In this document: positions 30,609-38,335 of the stretch, one piece after another | How positions within the stretch are numbered: the stretch's first letter is position 1 | Layout: each line of letters begins with the position of its first letter | Sequence record: OQ708376.1 | Strand: one strand, 5' to 3' | Length of the DNA stretch: 64,000 nucleotides | DNA from: Escherichia phage vB_EcoM_CRJP21 | Notes under the pieces: model-generated | Database searches by the model: none | What the model was told of the DNA's origin: nothing | What the model saw: only the letters and a program-made list of their open reading frames with translations | Made by a program: the position numbers and the translations under genes

Positions 30609-30642
30609 AGGGTTGACTTCGGTCAGCCTTTTTTGTTATGAT
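30609..30642 (+). promoter_or_regulatory. PeSL-like cassette
   Basis: gggttgac-ttcg-gtcagcc then T-run then tatgat. Confidence 0.6.
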
Positions 30643-30670
30643 GTTGATATTAACTACAGAGGATAAAGTA

Positions 30671-31312
30671 ATGACTAAGCAAGAAATATTCAAAACTTTA
30701 ATTGACATTTTGCGTCCATCAAAAACTCGTTGTGCGATGGAGTTTGATATTCCTTATGCTGAACGCGTAATCTTTCCACAAGTTAAAGCTGCTGGACTTA
30801 CTTTGCTTGGAATGGGGATGTACTCTGTAGTAGTTGAACATAAAAACTATCCTGGACGAGCATTTAAAGTAACCACTTCACGCTGGGATGGTTTTCGTGC
30901 TTATGCAAAGTACTGCATTGAAAACGCAGGAACCAAGTTTCTTCCAGTGATCTACAGTGCCAACGAACAAGGAAACTTTGGATGGTATGAGATGGACAAG
31001 TACTATCCTATAATTAAACAAAAAAATAATTATGATGACTTTGTTAGTACTAAAATTGGAGATTTGTATTCGTATGCACATGCTGGTCAGTACGCAACTT
31101 CAGTGAATGATATGCGTGGAAATTCTGAAGAGATTGCTATTGCAACGGTCGCTGCTAACATCATGAAAGAGTTTCACGGGCGTTTTGTACCAGACATTCA
31201 TTCAAGTAATGTGATGATGGATAAAGATGGGAATGTATTCATTACTGATCCTCTTTCGTGTGATGTGCGTAGAGAAATACCAATTACTGAAGAAGATCCA
31301 GTTTTTTATTGA
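30671..31312 (+). CDS. protein-kinase-like fold candidate (213 aa)
   Basis: G-loop-like GMGMYSVV, AFKV, catalytic-loop-like DIHSSNVMMDKDGNVFITDP. Confidence 0.4.
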   Translation: MTKQEIFKTLIDILRPSKTRCAMEFDIPYAERVIFPQVKAAGLTLLGMGMYSVVVEHKNYPGRAFKVTTSRWDGFRAYAKYCIENAGTKFLPVIYSANEQGNFGWYEMDKYYPIIKQKNNYDDFVSTKIGDLYSYAHAGQYATSVNDMRGNSEEIAIATVAANIMKEFHGRFVPDIHSSNVMMDKDGNVFITDPLSCDVRREIPITEEDPVFY

Positions 31313-31657: not shown

Positions 31658-31996
31658 ATGGAACAATATTTTGAATTAATAAACAAAGTATCATTTTATG
31701 TAGTATCTTTGGTTTGGGTGTATTATATGTTTTGCTATATTATTGCATTCTTCCGATACACTACTTTATATGAACGTATCTACTATGATGCCCCAATTTC
31801 ATTCTTGATGTTTTGTGCCTGTACGTGGGGAATATTAGAAGTACTGATATGTGGGTATAGTACTGATGAATTAAATCTGGTATCGGTGTTGACTGGGTTT
31901 TCATTTGTTGTTATGATAGCTGCCGTTCCAGTATGGTTGTTCTTTGGACTAGTTCATCGCATTGATATATGGCGTTCTAATATCCCTGAAAAGTAA
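31658..31996 (+). CDS. small 3-TM membrane protein, R.NIPE family
   Basis: C-terminal WRSNIPEK; paralog family. Confidence 0.6.
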   Translation: MEQYFELINKVSFYVVSLVWVYYMFCYIIAFFRYTTLYERIYYDAPISFLMFCACTWGILEVLICGYSTDELNLVSVLTGFSFVVMIAAVPVWLFFGLVHRIDIWRSNIPEK

Positions 31997-31999
31997 GGA

Positions 32000-32347
32000 T
32001 TGGTAATGATTTATTACACTAACATGTTTGCCTATGCTGTTGCTTGCATTTACATTGTTTACTTCTTATTCGGTGGAGTACTGTGCTTCTTTAAGTACAA
32101 AACGTTGTTCAACCGAATGTACCCAAATCATCCAATTGTAGTTGTACTTTTGATTCTTTCAGTTTCTCAAATAATCGTTGAAACTACAATGGGTATCAGT
32201 AGTGTACATTATAGTTTTGGTACTATAGTAATTATTACTATGCTTATTGCATACATTTTAGTACTTGGATATGGTATCTTTGGTAATATTGGTATGAAAA
32301 TGTATCATCGAATTAAAACATTACGTGATAATCTACCGGAGCGTTGA
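32000..32347 (+). CDS. small 3-TM membrane protein, R.NIPE family
   Basis: C-terminal LRDNLPER. Confidence 0.6.
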   Translation: MVMIYYTNMFAYAVACIYIVYFLFGGVLCFFKYKTLFNRMYPNHPIVVVLLILSVSQIIVETTMGISSVHYSFGTIVIITMLIAYILVLGYGIFGNIGMKMYHRIKTLRDNLPER

Positions 32348-32348
32348 T

Positions 32349-32693
32349 ATGTATAATTTGAACCTAATCTCATATATTATAACAACACTGTTTACATTCT
32401 ATGCCTTTGTTGGTATAATCCTACTGTACTTTAAATTTTATAAAGTGTTTAACCGTTTCTATCCTTCAATGGAGAATGAGTTTTTCTTTGTGTTGTACGT
32501 AGGTTACACATTAATGGCTACATGTTTCACTGTAGCCGATGGTGTCATCGGCATTAAAACTGATTCCCCAAATGGTAGTACGCTGGTTGCATTTATTCTT
32601 ACTGGATTCCTTGCAACTTATATTGCCTTCATTACAACATGGTCAGTGGTTGAATTTCTCTTGCGACTACGAAAGAATATGCCGAATCGATAG
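32349..32693 (+). CDS. small 3-TM membrane protein, R.NIPE family
   Basis: trimmed from track ORF 32325; C-terminal RKNMPNR. Confidence 0.6.
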   Translation: MYNLNLISYIITTLFTFYAFVGIILLYFKFYKVFNRFYPSMENEFFFVLYVGYTLMATCFTVADGVIGIKTDSPNGSTLVAFILTGFLATYIAFITTWSVVEFLLRLRKNMPNR

Positions 32694-32702
32694 GAGACAT
32701 AT

Positions 32703-32957
32703 ATGTTTGCGTTGCGTAATAAAAACACTAAAGAATTATTATGTATTGATACCGTATGGGATTGTGCGGGGTCAACTACAGTTCTTGAAGAAGGAACTGG
32801 ATATTGCGTGTTTGTTGTACATGATAGGAATGAACTCGAATTATTACTTGCTGAGTTCAATGCTGGTGGTAATCCTAACAGTACTGAATACCCTGAGATT
32901 ATCAATCCAGCACCACCAGGCTCTTATGAAATTCTACAACTGTGGGAGTTGAAGTAA
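32703..32957 (+). CDS. hypothetical protein (84 aa)
   Basis: ORF. Confidence 0.55.
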   Translation: MFALRNKNTKELLCIDTVWDCAGSTTVLEEGTGYCVFVVHDRNELELLLAEFNAGGNPNSTEYPEIINPAPPGSYEILQLWELK

Positions 32958-33338: not shown

Positions 33339-33366
33339 TTGACAAACACATTCAGTACTGTATAAT
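33339..33366 (+). promoter_or_regulatory. sigma70-like early promoter
   Basis: ttgaca-N16-tataat with CAGTACTG spacer. Confidence 0.6.
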
Positions 33367-33413
33367 GCTTATCAAGGGGATGAACTTCTCATCCCTACAA
33401 TCGAGGAACTACC

Positions 33414-33968
33414 ATGATTACTTTTAAGAAAACTGCTAACCACATCCATGAAATCTACATTAACGGTCACAAAGCTGGCCTTCTTCGTTTACTCGCCCAT
33501 CACCCTGATGCTACCGTATCTGATAATGAACCTAAAGATTGGCGTGTCTTTTTCTTTGGAAAGTACAGTGATTTTCAAGTATCAAACCTGAAGAACATTC
33601 GTTCAGTATGCACGTTAAATGAAATTAAAGAAAAGTTAGCACAAGCATTGAAAACTAATCCAGATGGTGTTCTTCCACCTGATAACTTTGTAGAGAAAGG
33701 TTATGCCTTAGCTCATTTCAAAGATGGTACTATTCAATCTATCAGTACTGAATATGAATATCATTGGACTGAGTACTTCACTTATGGTTCGAGTAATACA
33801 TTGATGGATTCACGTAGTAAATTGGAAGAAGTACTGACTCGTATGAATGAACGCGAGCGTCAGTTATATGACAAACCAGAAATGTGGAGTTCAACTTACA
33901 TTGACCGTATTGACTATGTTATTATGACTCCAATCTTTGACACTGCTTACTATGATTCTTTGAAATAA
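33414..33968 (+). CDS. hypothetical protein (184 aa)
   Basis: ORF after promoter. Confidence 0.65.
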   Translation: MITFKKTANHIHEIYINGHKAGLLRLLAHHPDATVSDNEPKDWRVFFFGKYSDFQVSNLKNIRSVCTLNEIKEKLAQALKTNPDGVLPPDNFVEKGYALAHFKDGTIQSISTEYEYHWTEYFTYGSSNTLMDSRSKLEEVLTRMNERERQLYDKPEMWSSTYIDRIDYVIMTPIFDTAYYDSLK

Positions 33969-33979
33969 GGATAACTTAT

Positions 33980-34156
33980 ATGAAACTACGTACTCGTAAT
34001 CGACTGATGGATGCACTGTACCATGAACAGCTTTCACTGAATGAAGTGAAGCGTCAGTTAATGTACACATATCAGTTTCCCGCTCGCATTGCAAAACAAC
34101 GTGCTAAAGAATTGCTGAAAGAAGCAATCGAGTACTGGGAATCTGATTCGTACTAA
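33980..34156 (+). CDS. hypothetical small protein (58 aa)
   Basis: hand-translated, below track cutoff. Confidence 0.35.
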   Translation: MKLRTRNRLMDALYHEQLSLNEVKRQLMYTYQFPARIAKQRAKELLKEAIEYWESDSY

Positions 34157-34195
34157 TATTACGTGATATGTCACGTTAATTAAGTGAGGCGATAA

Positions 34196-34447
34196 ATGAA
34201 AATATTATTAGTTCTAATACTACTAATAGTTTTACCATTTACTTTAGTATCCCCTGGACTTGCATGGAATGTATTTGTGTACTTAGTATGTACTATTGTA
34301 GTAAATGGTATCTTGTTCTTAGTTCTATTCATAAATGGAATAGGACACGGTGGAGGATGGACCAGTACTGCTGATATTGTACATAAAACCACTATGTCTT
34401 TATTTGTAATGTGGAATTTATTCTGGACTTGGTTTGTGTTCTTCTAA
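34196..34447 (+). CDS. small membrane protein
   Basis: hydrophobic helices. Confidence 0.5.
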   Translation: MKILLVLILLIVLPFTLVSPGLAWNVFVYLVCTIVVNGILFLVLFINGIGHGGGWTSTADIVHKTTMSLFVMWNLFWTWFVFF

Positions 34448-34455
34448 TTAAAAAT

Positions 34456-34827
34456 ATGAATATAGATTTGAAAGGTGCAACACGAACTGTTATCCTCGTT
34501 GGGGAATATGCTATCAAGATTCCAACCTTTAAAAGTTGGAAGCTATTCTTAACAGGGATGATAGCTAACCTCAATGAACGTTCGTGGATGCAGTACTCCA
34601 ATCGTAGTGATAGTAGTATCTGTCCTACGTTGTGGTCATCATGTACTGGACTAGTAACTGTACAGAAACGTTGTAAGCCAGTTCAACATAGGGGTTTATT
34701 TTGGGTGGAGTTGTGTGCTTTAGCATTGAATTCAGAGTTAAGTACTGACTTCTTCTATTCAGATGCGAAGCCAGAAAACTTTGGGTATCTGGGTGGTAAG
34801 TTAGTTAAACTTGATTATGGAGATTAA
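34456..34827 (+). CDS. mini kinase-like protein (N-lobe/catalytic-loop-like, ends at DYG)
   Basis: YAIKIP; DAKPENFGY (compare HRDLKPEN); KLVKLDYGD (compare DFG). Confidence 0.4.
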   Translation: MNIDLKGATRTVILVGEYAIKIPTFKSWKLFLTGMIANLNERSWMQYSNRSDSSICPTLWSSCTGLVTVQKRCKPVQHRGLFWVELCALALNSELSTDFFYSDAKPENFGYLGGKLVKLDYGD

Positions 34828-34828
34828 T

Positions 34829-35098
34829 ATGTACGCACTGTATAATAAAGAAAAGAAACGATTTGCTAAGGTTGAAATTTCGATTGATACATTTGATATG
34901 TTGGAGTACTGTATTGTAACTGACCTATATGCTAACTTGTATTACGTTCTTGATGACGTATCAGTACTGCAACGATTGCTTGAGAATTCCAAAAGTCAAT
35001 GCCAGGGCATCCATGATGGTTCATCTTATGAAACACCTGAGTGTTCCTACGGCTATCTGGACGGGTATGAGATTGTGAAGTTGGGGATCATTGAATAA
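34829..35098 (+). CDS. hypothetical protein
   Basis: trimmed from track ORF 34811; could be the downstream half of a split gene with 34456..34827. Confidence 0.4.
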   Translation: MYALYNKEKKRFAKVEISIDTFDMLEYCIVTDLYANLYYVLDDVSVLQRLLENSKSQCQGIHDGSSYETPECSYGYLDGYEIVKLGIIE

Positions 35099-35103
35099 AG
35101 AAA

Positions 35104-35138
35104 AGGGTTGACTTCGGTCAGCCCTTTTTGCTATAATT
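35104..35138 (+). promoter_or_regulatory. PeSL-like cassette upstream of denV
   Basis: gggttgac-ttcg-gtcagccc then T5 then tataat. Confidence 0.65.
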
Positions 35139-35165
35139 ATTTCATCAAGACGAGAGGATGAATAC

Positions 35166-35681
35166 ATGACACGCATTAACTTAGTACACGTTAAAGAACT
35201 TGCTGACCAACATCTGATGGCTGAATATCGTGAACTCCCACGTGTATTTGGTGCTGTACAAAAACACGTTCAAGCACGTAAGCGTGTACGTGATTTCAAA
35301 ATTAACAGTACTTATCTGTTAGGTTCAGGTCATGTGACATTCTTTTACGACAAGTTGCTGTACTTACAGAAGCGTCATATCGATATTGTTAACGAATGTT
35401 TGCGTCGTGGTATGAAGATTCAAAACACTGAAGTAAACGACATTAGCGGATTCCCTGCTGAGTTTTGTAATGACTACGTACCATCGGAGTCAGAGATTAA
35501 AATGTCTCGTGACCGTTTGATTGAGAAGCTCCAGATGAAGCCTACGTGGTATAAGTTTACTGATGTTGAATGTCCACAGTACGTTAAAGATATGCAGAAC
35601 GTAAGTAGTAAGAACGAATCTAGTACTGATATGTTCGACGAAATTGAAGAACAAATCAAAGATGAAATGAATAATTATTAA
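35166..35681 (+). CDS. denV: endonuclease V (pyrimidine dimer DNA glycosylase/AP lyase), T4 DenV homolog with C-terminal acidic extension
   Basis: [30 protein letters not shown]...KRVRDFKI......[10 protein letters not shown]...KR.I......L.RG...PTWYK matches remembered T4 EndoV nearly residue for residue. Confidence 0.93.
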
Positions 35682-35696
35682 AGGAAAGGGTTGACT

Positions 35697-35716
35697 TCGG
35701 TTACACAAAGGAACAT
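35697..35716 (+). promoter_or_regulatory. degenerate PeSL remnant
   Basis: gggttgacttcggttacac: 5' arm intact, 3' arm decayed. Confidence 0.4.
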
Positions 35717-35719
35717 AAC

Positions 35720-35914
35720 ATGTTATTAGTATATTCAAAGCGTTTCTGGATTTCTTTTATTGTACTATCGCTAATCGGCTTCGGTTTGAGTATACTCTTT
35801 TCGTGGGATGAATTGGGCACATGGTATTATGAAGTCCCGTGGTACATGAAGATAGCTCCTTGTTATGCGGCATTGTTCGTGTCATTCCTTATTGTTGTCT
35901 TCAGCGAGGATTAG
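35720..35914 (+). CDS. small membrane protein
   Basis: two TM helices. Confidence 0.5.
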   Translation: MLLVYSKRFWISFIVLSLIGFGLSILFSWDELGTWYYEVPWYMKIAPCYAALFVSFLIVVFSED

Positions 35915-36020
35915 TTGATGTAGTATGTGCTACACCAAAGTATTTGGATATTTTAGATATAAACATTGACACCTGTTCTATCTTTCTGTATTATGTACAT
36001 CACCAAATGAGGAATACAAC

Positions 36021-36380
36021 ATGGCATCTTTAAGTGAAATCGCAGAATACAACCCACTAACAATCTCAACAATTCAACGTACAAAAACTTTTTATTTCCG
36101 TCCTTCTGATGGATGGAAACGTGGAATGAATGGTGACTATCGAGTACTGGAAGATTCACTAATCGAGCGTATCAACTCTGAACTACAGAAGTATGAAGGT
36201 GTTAAAGTTGTGCGTTCAACTTCTCGTTATTTTGAGTACTACATTGAGTCTTCAACTGTAAATGAAAACTCATCATTCTCGGTGGACAACACTGATATTC
36301 TTCGTAATGCAGTTGGTCTGTTATGCAACATTGCAGAAGAAATGGGCTTAACTATTACTACTATGAGTGAATTAGAATAA
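36021..36380 (+). CDS. hypothetical protein (119 aa)
   Basis: SD gaggaa. Confidence 0.6.
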   Translation: MASLSEIAEYNPLTISTIQRTKTFYFRPSDGWKRGMNGDYRVLEDSLIERINSELQKYEGVKVVRSTSRYFEYYIESSTVNENSSFSVDNTDILRNAVGLLCNIAEEMGLTITTMSELE

Positions 36381-36384
36381 CATA

Positions 36385-36420
36385 AAGGGTTGACTTCGGT
36401 CAGCCCTTTTTGCTATAATA
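36385..36420 (+). promoter_or_regulatory. PeSL-like cassette
   Basis: gggttgac-ttcg-gtcagccc then T5 then tataat. Confidence 0.65.
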
Positions 36421-36685: not shown

Positions 36686-38335
36686 TTGTATATGATTGGA
36701 AGTTTTTGTTTTATTGACAAAAAAAAACGTTCAAAACCTTATATTATTGCTGAAAAGGTAAGAAATATATTTTCTAATATAAAAGAAATAAATTGTGACT
36801 TTATTGGTTTTGATATTAACTCAATACTTGAATGGGAAGGGGAAAAAACATATATTTTATATGAAATAAATGGTATAACAAAAAAGATTAGATATGATAT
36901 TCTAAGACAACATTCTAATAATGGTTCTTTTCCGAATAAAAAACATTTTAATTCTGAAGAATTAAAAAAATGTAGTAAAGAAAAAAAAATATTTGATTAT
37001 GATAAGTCAATGAGATTGTCATCTTATTATTCAACACCAAATATAATAACGGTTGGTGATAAAGATATATCATATTTTACTGCTCTTCAGTTAGAAGCTA
37101 TATCTCCATATATGCATTTTAACTCTATCACACCCACTGAATATTCGAAAAAAATATTGAATAAGATAAAAGAGTTTAAAAATGTTGAAGTTATTTTTTA
37201 TGGATTTTATGTATCATACTATTCAGAATGGAATAACAAAAAAACAAAAATAGTAATATCTTTTAATGAATATGTTACCTATCATATGACAATTGATGAT
37301 TTTTTATATAGTTTAGATAGTAATATAACAGATATTCCTCGTTTTAATTATAATAATGAAAATTTTATTTATCGTATGATGTTTTTTGGATATGCTAATA
37401 ATCATACTTTTGATTTATCAAATTTAAACATTAAAAATTCCAAATCAATAATTAGAAAAAAATGTAAAGTATGTAAAAGTACTGATGTAGTGAGTATTGC
37501 ACAACATATTAGGAATCCTAGTTGCTCTGTATGTTTTTATAATACTGAAAAATTTAATTATAATGAATATGAAGCATGTGAAGAAGTTGTTAATGAGTAT
37601 AAGGGATTTCATTATATGAATCATGATAATATAAAATTCATTCCAATTGGATGTTCTTACACACCATTTGAATGGTATGAAATAATAAAATATAAGGGTG
37701 GTGATTCTTTTATTGGTTTTTATATTAACAGTTCTTCAGAGTTTGACGGTAATAAGACGAAAATTTTATTAGATATTAATGGGGTAATATTAACTCCAAC
37801 AATTCTCAATTTTCTTGAGAGATACGAAAATATGTATAAAGACCTAATAAATCCAACAATATCTTTGGAAATTATGTCTAATAATAAATACAAACCCTCG
37901 GTTGCACGTCACAAAAGAATCTTTAGTCAACCTATTTTAACATTAGGAGGGATTATTTCATCAAATGATTTATCATCATATGAAATGATAGTCGCATTGT
38001 TCCTAATCAAAAATAATATTGATTTTCATTTTCAATTCAGAACTGAAGAATCAATAGAATTTATGGGAAATAGAAGATATGATTTTTATGTACCAGATTA
38101 TAATCTAATCATTGAAGTTGATGGTGCACAGCATACAAACTATTGCCCAATATTTCATAGAAGTGAAGAGTGCTTACAAAAACAAATGGAAATTGATGAA
38201 ATAAAACTTGAATTTGCAAAAGAATCAGGATATAATTTTGCTCGCATTAACTATGATGAATCTATTGTTGATGAACTTATTAATGTGATTAAAAAAATAT
38301 CATCTGAAAATAATCAGATTATTAGAACTTATTAA
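36686..38335 (+). CDS. AT-rich multi-domain protein with C-terminal DUF559/Vsr-like PD-(D/E)xK endonuclease domain
   Basis: C-terminus ...RRYDFYVPDYNLIIEVDGAQH...EIDEIKLEFAKESGYNFARINYDE; Cys pairs KCKVCKS...CSVCF; markedly lower GC than neighbours. Confidence 0.55.
   Translation: MYMIGSFCFIDKKKRSKPYIIAEKVRNIFSNIKEINCDFIGFDINSILEWEGEKTYILYEINGITKKIRYDILRQHSNNGSFPNKKHFNSEELKKCSKEKKIFDYDKSMRLSSYYSTPNIITVGDKDISYFTALQLEAISPYMHFNSITPTEYSKKILNKIKEFKNVEVIFYGFYVSYYSEWNNKKTKIVISFNEYVTYHMTIDDFLYSLDSNITDIPRFNYNNENFIYRMMFFGYANNHTFDLSNLNIKNSKSIIRKKCKVCKSTDVVSIAQHIRNPSCSVCFYNTEKFNYNEYEACEEVVNEYKGFHYMNHDNIKFIPIGCSYTPFEWYEIIKYKGGDSFIGFYINSSSEFDGNKTKILLDINGVILTPTILNFLERYENMYKDLINPTISLEIMSNNKYKPSVARHKRIFSQPILTLGGIISSNDLSSYEMIVALFLIKNNIDFHFQFRTEESIEFMGNRRYDFYVPDYNLIIEVDGAQHTNYCPIFHRSEECLQKQMEIDEIKLEFAKESGYNFARINYDESIVDELINVIKKISSENNQIIRTY

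What the first reader, a model, noticed from the sequence alone, without database searches (positions are those of the whole stretch)
34456..35098. Second mini kinase-like ORF ending at a DFG-like motif, possibly a split gene
The product shows YAIKIP (compare VAIK), DAKPENFGY (compare HRDLKPEN) and KLVKLDYGD (compare DFG) in the canonical order and spacing, yet the ORF ends immediately after DYG. The next ORF (34829..35098) starts within a few bases of that stop. This could be a kinase gene split by a frameshift or stop, a programmed recoding event, or a genuinely truncated pseudokinase.
Basis: inference. Interest (0 to 1): 0.6.

Follow-up and report, generated by a model that had tools for sequence, protein, structure and literature searches.

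The report
Phage mini-kinase that naturally ends at DFG
The 123-residue ORF is not a broken gene: it is a complete member of a large, uncharacterised, almost purely viral protein family that keeps only the ATP-binding and catalytic half of a protein kinase and always stops right after the DFG-like motif, which would make it the smallest kinase-type core known if it proves active.

Summary
ORF1 (34456..34827, 123 aa) carries YAIKIP, DAKPENFGY and KLVKLDYGD in kinase order and spacing, stops one residue after DYG, and ORF2 starts 1 nt later. The window is an Asteriusvirus jumbo coliphage (99% identical to 121Q and G17); ORF1 is 121Q gp215 (PHROG 4301, function unknown).

The split-gene/recoding idea is rejected. 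An exhaustive profile search found 1213 cluster representatives, nearly all 110-130 aa. 136 of 161 aligned sequences (the window protein plus 160 collected homologues) end 0-3 residues after DYG. Downstream genes differ between phage lineages, even in the congeneric phage EJP2. ORF2 is an Asteriusvirus-only small protein with its own Shine-Dalgarno sequence and a paralogue 2 kb upstream.

The β3 Lys, αC Glu and DFG Asp are 99-100% conserved, and the catalytic-loop triplet D-K-N alternates in a coupled way with E-K-S. No Pfam or NCBIfam family matches, and I found no literature on it.

Best reading: a stand-alone, early-expressed accessory phosphotransferase core that lacks the activation segment and the whole helical C-lobe. 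Activity and substrate are untested.

The parts
34456..34827 (+). ORF1: complete 123-aa mini-kinase gene (121Q gp215 orthologue, PHROG 4301). The start at ATG 34456 fits the family N-terminus M-x-I-x-x-K-G-x-T-R.
   Evidence: (phrog_4301, E 1.5e-43)
34474..34485 (+). G7-A-T9-R10: family-specific replacement of the Gly-rich loop at the beta1-beta2 turn. Conservation: G7 98%, T/S9 94%, R10 99%.
34516..34518 (+). K21, the beta3 'VAIK' lysine (99% conserved), followed by invariant P23.
34576..34578 (+). E41, the alphaC glutamate (100% conserved); N38 one helical turn earlier is 98% conserved.
34762..34779 (+). Catalytic loop D103-A-K105-P-E-N108 (compare HRDLKPEN). In the family, D-K-N (84 sequences) alternates with E-K-S (45 sequences) in a coupled way.
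34813..34824 (+). D120-Y-G (the DFG equivalent; D 99%, Y 90%, G 88%) plus the last residue D123. The protein ends here.
34819..34822 (+). GGAG Shine-Dalgarno sequence for ORF2, inside the last codons of ORF1 and 6 nt before ATG 34829.
   Evidence: direct reading
34829..35098 (+). ORF2: independent 89-aa gene (121Q gp216, PHROG 8563). It is restricted to Asteriusvirus, has a paralogue at 32703..32957, and is not part of the kinase.
35100..35129 (+). Intrinsic-terminator-like hairpin (13-bp stem, UUCG loop, dG -18.9 kcal/mol, z -5.3) that closes the gp212-gp216 transcription unit.
33339..33366 (+). Perfect sigma-70-type promoter match (TTGACA-16-TATAAT, 12/12) upstream of gp212. It is the likely early promoter of the unit that contains ORF1 (inferred).

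Best explanation
ORF1 is a complete, stand-alone gene for a 123-aa protein of a large, almost exclusively viral family.

**What the protein keeps and what it lacks**
- It keeps the nucleotide-binding and phosphotransfer core of a Hanks-type Ser/Thr protein kinase: beta1-beta5 with alphaC (the N-lobe), alphaE, the catalytic loop, beta7-beta8 and the Mg-binding DFG-like loop.
- It terminates by design one residue after that loop.
- It lacks the activation segment, the P+1/APE region and helices alphaF to alphaI.

**Most likely mechanism (inferred)**
- Mg-ATP sits between the N-lobe and the stub of the C-lobe.
- ATP is held by the K21-E41 pair, N108 and D120.
- D103 (Glu in one subfamily) and K105 perform or assist transfer of the gamma-phosphate.
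- The family-invariant T9-R10 and N38 stand in for the missing Gly-rich loop and activation-segment contacts.
- With no substrate-binding lobe, the active site is open. The enzyme is expected either to have low specificity or to be positioned or activated by a bound host partner, as OspG is by E2~Ub.

**Likely biological role (inferred)**
It is transcribed from a sigma-70-type (early) promoter as one of a string of small accessory genes. It behaves as a mobile accessory gene inserted at different places in unrelated phages. Its role is most likely host takeover or counter-defence by phosphorylation.

**Shown versus inferred**
- Shown: gene integrity, family size, the native C-terminus, the fold, the conservation and covariation of catalytic residues, independence from ORF2, and viral restriction.
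- Inferred: ATP binding, catalysis, the nature of the substrate, and the timing of expression.

My confidence that the architecture and family statement is right is about 0.95. My confidence that the protein is a catalytically active phosphotransferase is about 0.5. The single figure given for this explanation (0.55) reflects the full statement, including activity.
For: **Family and native end**
- The exhaustive HMM search found 1213 representatives at E<=1e-3 and 637 at E<=1e-10, nearly all 110-130 aa with the match running to the C-terminus.
- 136 of 161 aligned sequences have 0-3 residues after DYG.
- tblastn finds full-length copies in 117 phage records, including Asteriusvirus, T4-like, N4-like, Felix O1-like, Aeromonas, Erwinia, Ralstonia and Pseudomonas phages.

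**Fold**
- AF2 gives pLDDT 90.2 and pTM 0.78, with the element order beta1-3, alphaC, beta4-5, alphaE, catalytic loop, beta7-8.
- BFVD hits include Ralstonia phage RP12 'Protein kinase domain-containing protein'.

**Active-site conservation over 161 aligned sequences**
- K21 99%, E41 100%, D120 99%, G110 98%, K105 86%.
- D103/N108 against E103/S108 covary: 84 D-K-N, 45 E-K-S, only 6 mixed. This argues for a constrained active site rather than a decaying one.
- A Lys two residues after the catalytic Asp is the Ser/Thr-protein-kinase signature HRDLKPEN (established knowledge: Hanks and Hunter subdomain VIb).

**Stand-alone status**
- No conserved neighbour was found in 37 loci or in metagenomic contexts.
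- The outer face of alphaE is polar in most members, as expected if it is solvent-exposed rather than packed on a missing lobe.

**Viral restriction**
- Only 8 weak loci were found in 185,579 species genomes. Seven are short contigs, six of them from MAGs, and one is a 62.6-kb plasmid.

**Expression**
- A 12/12 sigma-70 promoter lies at 33339, and a strong terminator follows ORF2.

**Precedent**
- Phage kinases can act as broad counter-defence: T7K (PMC13645617).
Against: - No experiment exists for any member, and I found no literature.
- No sequence HMM of any kinase family matches: Pfam, NCBIfam and PDB sequences all gave nothing significant.
- Every characterised 'minimal' kinase still keeps helices after DFG (OspG, HopBF1, Bud32, RIO, ArkI, SteC). 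An SteC fragment that ends at alphaEF is catalytically inactive (PMC13395416). A core that ends at DFG may therefore be unable to catalyse transfer on its own.
- The canonical GxGxxG loop and the His-Arg of HRD are absent.
- Coordinates of the model could not be inspected, so the geometry of the K21-E41 pair and of the pocket is unverified.
- Copies are disrupted in a few relatives (CMSTMSU, TH47, SD-1_S14), so the gene is dispensable.
Confidence: 0.55

Rival explanations
1. Non-catalytic nucleotide-binding protein. On this reading the half-kinase is a pseudokinase-like module. It binds ATP or a nucleotide signal, or docks on a host protein, and acts as a sponge, decoy or allosteric inhibitor without transferring phosphate.
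For: - The whole substrate-binding lobe and the alphaF anchor are missing.
- Truncating a minimal kinase before alphaF abolishes activity in SteC.
- Small phage proteins that sequester nucleotide signals are a known counter-defence strategy (own knowledge).
- An Acb1 gene lies about 4 kb from one homologue.
- The family is basic, with median pI 9.1.
Against: - Pseudokinase families typically lose the catalytic Asp, the Mg-binding Asn or the DFG Asp. Here K21, E41 and D120 are 99-100% conserved.
- The catalytic-loop pair changes only in a coupled D/N to E/S manner. Simple binding would hardly constrain it that way.
Confidence: 0.22
2. Kinase for a nucleic-acid end or a small molecule rather than for proteins. 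An example would be a polynucleotide 5'-OH or RNA 2'-OH kinase that works with phage repair or ligation enzymes.
For: - The family recurs next to nucleic-acid repair genes. It is immediately upstream of denV in Nipunavirus-like Pseudomonas phages and two genes upstream of denV here.
- It is immediately upstream of RNA ligase 2 in JS10.
- It lies within 0.6-1.8 kb of DNA ligase in SPJ41 and PaMx11.
- It sits between nrd genes in Aeromonas phages.
- The family has a basic pI.
Against: - Other contexts are unrelated: next to terminase in an N4-like phage, inside a tail module, and in the ipI/tRNA plastic region of a T4-like phage.
- No neighbour is conserved across lineages.
- In this window a terminator and a promoter separate ORF1 and ORF2 from denV.
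- The D-x-K-P-x-N catalytic loop is the protein Ser/Thr kinase type. Small-molecule kinases of this fold lack the Lys at +2 (established knowledge).
- The known phage DNA kinase 5-HMUDK is a P-loop enzyme and a different gene in PaMx11 (gp49 against gp73).
Confidence: 0.12
3. ORF1 and ORF2 are two halves of one kinase gene. They would be separated by a frameshift or stop mutation, by an assembly error, or by programmed recoding.
For: - The two ORFs are 1 nt apart.
- A single-base deletion in GAT-TAA-T-ATG would fuse them in frame.
Against: - The same stop and spacing occur in every independent assembly I compared.
- The family ends at DYG in unrelated phages with unrelated downstream genes.
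- ORF2 occurs only in Asteriusvirus.
- ORF2 has its own SD.
- ORF2 has a paralogue at 32703..32957 that follows a membrane-protein gene, not a kinase.
- ORF2 is predicted to be mainly beta-strand.
- There is no slippery sequence.
- No long homologue carries a kinase C-lobe after DYG; the extensions in OBP_197 and P0116 have no Pfam match and differ from one another.
Confidence: 0.02

Closest known systems
Minimal bacterial effector kinases OspG/NleH (Shigella, EPEC) and HopBF1
   Same: - They have no conventional activation loop and a reduced C-lobe.
- OspG needs a bound host partner (E2~Ub) to be active. That is a plausible model for how a lobe-less core could work.
   Different: - Those proteins are about 170-200 aa and keep helices after the DFG-equivalent. 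This family is about 120 aa and ends 0-3 residues after it.
- There is no detectable sequence relationship.
- They are secreted effectors acting in eukaryotic cells, not phage proteins.
Phage T7 protein kinase gp0.7 (T7K) and its jumbophage homologues (PHROG 2828/15752)
   Same: - It is a phage-encoded, early, eukaryotic-like kinase with a non-canonical DFG motif (DPV). It acts as a promiscuous counter-defence enzyme (PMC13645617).
- A homologue lies 3.1 kb upstream in this same window (30638..31312). That copy is also short after its D-P-L motif.
   Different: - It is a separate family. hhalign probability is 0.13%, and ORF1 matches PHROG 4301 only.
- T7K-type kinase domains are about 220 aa or more.
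- ORF1 has the DxKPxN and DYG motifs. The T7K type has DPV.
Hanks-type (eukaryotic-like) Ser/Thr protein kinases, e.g. TTK/Mps1 and PknB
   Same: - They are the best structural matches.
- The order and spacing of the beta3 Lys, alphaC Glu, D-x-K-P-x-N catalytic loop and D-[FY]-G agree.
- A sub-threshold profile alignment to TTK 'SDLKPANF...IDFG' is in register.
   Different: - ORF1 has no GxGxxG, no His-Arg before the catalytic Asp, no activation segment or APE, and no alphaF to alphaI.
- The Pfam Pkinase model does not match any of 101 members.
Bud32/PRPK, RIO kinases and the archaeal RNA kinase ArkI (small atypical kinases)
   Same: - They lack a classical activation loop.
- Some act as ATPases or on RNA rather than on proteins.
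   Different: - They are 170-290 aa and retain a helical C-lobe.
- Their catalytic loops lack the Lys at +2.
- They are cellular housekeeping proteins.

Membership tests
Protein-kinase-like (PKL) fold superfamily | Bilobal ATP-binding fold: a five-stranded N-lobe sheet with alphaC, followed by alphaE, the catalytic loop, and beta7-beta8 with the Mg-binding loop | tested here: met
   [not shown]
Eukaryotic-like protein kinase domain (Pfam Pkinase PF00069 / Hanks-type) | Significant match to the family sequence model | tested here: not met
   No Pkinase hit for ORF1 or for any of 101 family members, even at E<=1. PDB sequence search with the family profile gave TTK only at E 0.6-1.2.
Eukaryotic-like protein kinase domain (Hanks-type) | Catalytic residues: beta3 Lys, alphaC Glu, catalytic Asp, Lys at +2, Asn at +5, DFG Asp | tested here: met
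   K21 99%, E41 100%, D103 (D 65% / E 34%), K105 86%, N108 (N 67% / S 30%), D120 99%.
Eukaryotic-like protein kinase domain (Hanks-type) | Gly-rich loop GxGxxG, and the His-Arg of the HRD motif | tested here: not met
   The loop is K-G-A-T-R-T-V, with invariant G7, T9 and R10. The catalytic loop is Y-S-D-A-K-P-E-N, without His-Arg.
Eukaryotic-like protein kinase domain (Hanks-type) | Activation segment (DFG...APE) and helical subdomains alphaF to alphaI | tested here: not met
   The protein ends at DYG+1. 136 of 161 aligned sequences end within 3 residues of DYG.
PHROG 4301 (phage proteins of unknown function) | Significant full-length match to the family profile | tested here: met
   E 1.5e-43, residues 2-122.
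T7 gp0.7 kinase family (PHROG 2828) | [quoted passage not shown] | tested here: not met
   PHROG scan of ORF1 returns only phrog_4301. hhalign against the window's own T7K homologue gives probability 0.13%. The motif is DYG, not DPV.
[quoted passage not shown] | P-loop kinase encoded in the hypermodification gene cluster | tested here: not met
   5-HMUDK is a P-loop kinase and is gp49 in PaMx11. The mini-kinase homologue is PaMx11 gp73, far from that cluster, and has a PKL fold.
Split gene or programmed recoding site | Homologues encode the two parts as one polypeptide; the downstream part is co-inherited; a slippery or recoding signal is present | tested here: not met
   No fused homologue was found. 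ORF2 is absent outside Asteriusvirus and is replaced by an unrelated ORF in EJP2. There is no slippery sequence.
Active protein kinase (functional class) | ATP binding and phosphotransfer to a substrate | not testable with these tools
   This needs biochemistry. Only conservation of the catalytic residues could be shown.

The most novel reading that the evidence does not exclude
The family is a new class of autonomous 'half-kinases'. A roughly 120-aa core ending at the DFG motif would be catalytically competent, either alone or after docking on a host protein that substitutes for the missing C-lobe. It would then be the smallest protein-kinase-type enzyme known. It would show that the alphaF-anchored helical lobe is dispensable for phosphotransfer. 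Phages of many lineages would use it as a portable host-takeover or counter-defence module.
Probability: 0.35. Interest if true: 0.8.

Novelty: new variant of a known kind. Interest (0 to 1): 0.58.

Why it matters
Current structural models of protein kinases treat the alphaF helix and the helical C-lobe as the scaffold that organises the catalytic and regulatory spines.

This family has more than a thousand 50%-identity clusters. It keeps every catalytic residue under coupled constraint while lacking that scaffold entirely. It therefore makes the minimal requirements for a kinase active site directly testable.

For phage biology, it adds a second, unrelated and far more widespread candidate kinase family to the T7K type that was recently shown to disarm bacterial defences. 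Homologues in tractable phages, such as Bas45 (a T4-like BASEL phage) and JS10, make genetics feasible.

For annotation, it shows that these genes should not be 'repaired' as frameshifted kinases or merged with the downstream ORF.

Tried and rejected
**Hypotheses tested and rejected**
- Fusion of ORF1 and ORF2. I tested ORF2 on its own instead, and it is an Asteriusvirus-only family with a paralogue and a low-confidence, mainly beta-strand model.
- Relationship to the window's T7K-like kinase: none.
- A conserved partner gene that could supply a C-lobe in trans. All-against-all clustering of ORFs in 37 loci found none. Only denV recurs, and in just two lineages.
- The idea that the family is the phage 5-hmdU DNA kinase. 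That enzyme is a P-loop kinase and a different gene.
- The 'virion structural protein' label on the Shewanella phage SXP01 hit. It belongs to a neighbouring, barely overlapping ORF.
- A further paralogue of ORF1 in the window: none.

**Searches that returned nothing**
- Sequence searches of ORF1 and the family against Pfam, NCBIfam and PDB sequences gave no significant hit.
- Domain hints in the rare long homologues: no Pfam match.
- Seven of the eight literature searches were aimed at this family or at truncated phage kinases and found nothing on it (and the EVADES paper).

- The search for related loci with the broad alignment failed.
- The first genome scan with a narrow pattern found nothing. 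The second found only 8 loci, seven short contigs (six from MAGs) and one plasmid.
Full report
**Origin of the window.** The region 33400-36400 is 99.2% identical to Escherichia phage 121Q and 98.9% identical to G17 and Sharanji. These are jumbo coliphages of the genus Asteriusvirus. ORF1 (34456..34827) corresponds to 121Q gp215, ORF2 (34829..35098) to gp216, and the next gene (35166..35681) to endonuclease V, DenV.

**Observation check.**
The 123-aa product is MNIDLKGATRTVILVGEYAIKIPTFK...FYSDAKPENFGYLGGKLVKLDYGD, followed by the stop.
- YAIKIP is residues 18-23, DAKPENFGY is 103-111 and KLVKLDYGD is 115-123.
- The stop TAA lies at 34825-34827. The ATG of ORF2 is at 34829, in the +1 frame.
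- A GGAG at 34819-34822 sits 6 nt before that ATG.
- The stop and the 1-nt spacing are the same in every Asteriusvirus assembly whose coordinates I compared: 121Q, Sharanji, SP27, PBECO4, UE-S1 and JNE01. An assembly error is excluded.

**Is it kinase-like?**
- Sequence models say nothing. There is no Pfam, NCBIfam or PDB-sequence hit for ORF1, for 14 close homologues or for 101 diverse homologues.
- The only sequence-level match is PHROG 4301, 'unknown function' (E 1.5e-43).
- The fold is clear. AlphaFold2 with a 14-sequence alignment gives pLDDT 90.2 and pTM 0.78. The elements are beta1 2-4, beta2 10-15, beta3 18-23 (K21), alphaC 28-43 (E41), beta4 58-61, beta5 68-71, alphaE 79-92, a short helix 97-101, the catalytic loop 103-108, beta7 109-112 and beta8 115-118, then D120-Y-G and the end of the chain.
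- The listed Foldseek hits against the PDB are protein-kinase-like structures, led by TTK/Mps1 (E 4e-4, probability 1.0, TMq 0.60) and including ROCK2, Lpg2603 and WbdD.
- A 101-sequence profile aligns 'vdakpenfGylngklvkiDyG' with TTK '[21 protein letters not shown]' in the correct register, at a non-significant E of 0.6-1.
- In BFVD the best matches are family members. One of them (Ralstonia phage RP12) is named 'Protein kinase domain-containing protein' in UniProt.
- Three GenBank records call their copy a Ser/Thr or STE-family kinase.
That criterion is not met, so the kinase likeness stands.

**Is it split or truncated by accident?** No.
- An exhaustive profile search of 1.84 billion representatives found 1213 proteins at E<=1e-3 and 637 at E<=1e-10. 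The best 150 are almost all 110-130 aa, with the match reaching the last residue.
- I aligned 161 sequences, the window protein plus 160 collected homologues. Of these, 136 have 0-3 residues after the Gly of DYG, and 101 have exactly one.
- The few longer members have short, mutually unrelated tails or extensions without any Pfam match. None resembles a kinase C-lobe.
- Full-length copies occur in 117 phage records from very different groups.
- The genes that follow them are unrelated to each other and to ORF2:
  - rnlB in the T4-like JS10;
  - a 166-aa ORF in Aeromonas phage 2L372X;
  - denV in PaMx25;
  - gp73 in the N4-like Moonfish;
  - others in metagenomic contigs;
  - an unrelated 62-aa ORF in EJP2, a divergent member of the same genus whose copy ends with the identical KLVKLDYGD-stop.
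- ORF2 is found only in Asteriusvirus: 33 records, and 6 clusters among 5.8 billion.
- ORF2 matches its own family, PHROG 8563, end to end.
- ORF2 has a paralogue in this window at 32703..32957 that follows a membrane-protein gene rather than a kinase (the pairwise BLASTP is weak, E 0.007).
- ORF2 is predicted, at low confidence (pLDDT 53), to be mostly beta-strand. The kinase C-lobe is helical.
- A 1-nt deletion would formally fuse the two ORFs. That is true of many abutting phage genes and has no comparative support.

**Conservation across the 161 aligned sequences.**
- G7 98%, T/S9 94%, R10 99%, V12 93%, K21 99%, P23 98%, F31 92%, G34 98%, N38 98%, E41 100%, G65 94%, K105 86%, G110 98%, D120 99%, Y121 90%, G122 88%.
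- The catalytic-loop positions 103/105/108 occur as D-K-N in 84 sequences and E-K-S in 45. Only 4 are E-K-N and 2 are D-K-S.
- This coupled replacement of the presumed catalytic base and the Mg-binding residue is what one expects from a constrained active site.
- The near-invariance of the Lys-Glu pair and the DFG Asp is not what pseudokinase families usually show.
- The Lys two residues after the catalytic Asp is the Ser/Thr-protein-kinase signature (HRDLKPEN, established knowledge). Small-molecule kinases of this fold lack it.
- A sub-branch in Pseudomonas siphophages (PaMx25 gp65) even has a near-canonical 'LGEGIHRKVF...VVKVE...SDLKPENFG...LDYA'.
- The G-x-T-R motif and N38 are family-specific invariants next to the active site. 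Their role is unknown. I infer that they replace contacts normally made by the Gly-rich loop and the activation segment.
- The outer face of alphaE is polar in most members. Residues 85, 87, 88 and 91 are 60-75% polar, while 86 and 89 are 79-93% hydrophobic. That fits a solvent-exposed helix in a protein that has adapted to lacking alphaF and alphaH. The alignment is gappy there, so this point is weak.

**Genomic setting.**
- A perfect sigma-70-type promoter match (33339-33366, 12/12) precedes gp212.
- gp212 to gp216 follow head to tail.
- A 13-bp hairpin with a UUCG loop (35100-35129, dG -18.9 kcal/mol, z -5.3) follows ORF2 directly.
- That hairpin overlaps the -35 element of a second promoter-like site (35108-35137, 11/12) in front of denV.
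- ORF1 therefore looks like an early gene read by the host polymerase, in a unit separate from denV. This is inference.
- No neighbour is conserved across lineages. The gene sits in different places:
  - the ipI/tRNA plastic region of a T4-like BASEL phage;
  - between DNA ligase and DNA polymerase, on the opposite strand, in a Felix O1-like phage;
  - before the terminase in an N4-like contig;
  - in a tail module;
  - about 4 kb from Acb1 in another contig.
- This is the behaviour of a mobile accessory gene.
- One recurrent association deserves mention: repair and ligation enzymes. denV is adjacent in two unrelated lineages. rnlB is adjacent in JS10. DNA ligase lies within 2 kb in PaMx11 and SPJ41. 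This keeps a nucleic-acid kinase hypothesis alive at low probability.
- The family is essentially viral. Two scans of 185,579 species genomes gave eight loci. Seven are short contigs, six of them from MAGs, and one is a 62.6-kb plasmid.

**Mechanism.**
- I commit to the following reading. The protein is a stand-alone, ultra-minimal kinase-type phosphotransferase core.
- It binds Mg-ATP through K21-E41, N108 and D120. It uses D103 and K105 for transfer.
- It has an open acceptor side because the activation segment and the substrate-binding lobe are absent.
- It should therefore either be promiscuous, as the unrelated T7 kinase is (PMC13645617), or depend on a bound partner, as the minimal effector kinase OspG depends on E2~Ub.
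- The main argument against autonomous activity is the SteC precedent. A fragment of that minimal kinase ending at alphaEF is inactive, and alphaF contributes to substrate binding (PMC13395416).
- The chief rival is a non-catalytic nucleotide-binding or decoy protein.
- None of this can be settled without biochemistry.

**Comparison with known systems and novelty.**
- The fold places the family in the protein-kinase-like superfamily.
- It fails the sequence model and several defining features of the Hanks-type domain: the Gly-rich loop, His-Arg, the activation segment and alphaF to alphaI.
- It is unrelated to the T7K family. A member of that family lies at 30638..31312 in this window (phrog_15752 E 1e-98, phrog_2828 E 9e-17; hhalign probability 0.13% against ORF1).
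- It is not the P-loop 5-hmdU DNA kinase.
- All characterised minimal kinases are 50-100 residues longer and keep helices after DFG.
- I found no paper on this family. The gene itself is annotated 'hypothetical protein' in nearly all records.
- I therefore class it as a new variant of a known kind: a kinase core without a C-lobe.
- The finding is worth a bench test, but its functional interpretation is still inference.

Noticed in passing
It is a 224-aa T7 gp0.7-type kinase homologue without the shut-off domain (phrog_15752 E 1e-98, phrog_2828 E 9e-17; 121Q gp205). It ends about 14 residues after its 'ITDPLS' DFG-equivalent. Jumbophage T7K homologues, including the one in G17, are described in PMC13645617. 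It is unrelated in sequence to ORF1 (hhalign probability 0.13%).
   Followed up: partly
window 32703..32957 (+) and 34829..35098 (+): ORF2 has a paralogue 2.1 kb upstream. Both match PHROG 8563 end to end (E 1e-21 and 7e-25), although pairwise BLASTP is weak (27% identity, E 0.007). The family is a small protein of unknown function restricted to Asteriusvirus. The AF2 model of ORF2 has low confidence (pLDDT 53).
   Followed up: partly
window 31658..31996, 32000..32347, 32325..32693 (+): Three tandem paralogous genes for small, apparently multi-pass membrane proteins (all PHROG 19285; the third is divergent, E 2e-4). The third overlaps the second by 23 nt.
   Followed up: no
window 35166..35681 (+); loci L005, L026, L029-L031, L033: DenV (pyrimidine-dimer glycosylase) here is 171 aa, with a roughly 35-aa acidic C-terminal extension beyond the PHROG profile. 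A mini-kinase gene immediately upstream of denV also occurs in Nipunavirus-like Pseudomonas phages, where the two genes overlap by 4 nt. This association recurs in two unrelated lineages and its meaning is unknown. Ligase genes lie next to or near the mini-kinase in JS10 (rnlB), PaMx11 and SPJ41.
   Followed up: partly
window 35100..35137 (+): A strong terminator hairpin (13-bp stem, UUCG loop, dG -18.9 kcal/mol) overlaps the -35 hexamer of a sigma-70-like promoter (TTGACT-18-TATAAT, with a TG extension) for denV. The simple terminator scan missed this hairpin.
   Followed up: partly
window 36686..38335 (+): A 549-aa ORF with an HNH/homing-endonuclease-like C-terminal part (phrog_559, phrog_9084). 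By eye, its N-terminal half contains three copies of a module of about 40 aa (…GF.INS..EW.G.KT.I…ING…). The 121Q annotation gives a shorter 487-aa 'endonuclease'.
   Followed up: no
family alignment; window 34762..34779: The catalytic-loop residues covary across the family: D-K-N in 84 sequences, E-K-S in 45, and mixed forms in only 6. I know of no characterised kinase that uses an E...S catalytic loop. The E-K-S subfamily also ends at DYG[S/N/D].
   Followed up: partly
relatives of ORF1 in GenBank: The ORF1 orthologue appears disrupted or shortened in a few close relatives. In CMSTMSU the match is in two pieces. TH47 covers residues 44-123 only. Salmonella phage SD-1_S14 has a 102-aa product. 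This suggests the gene is dispensable, or that there are assembly errors in those records.
   Followed up: no
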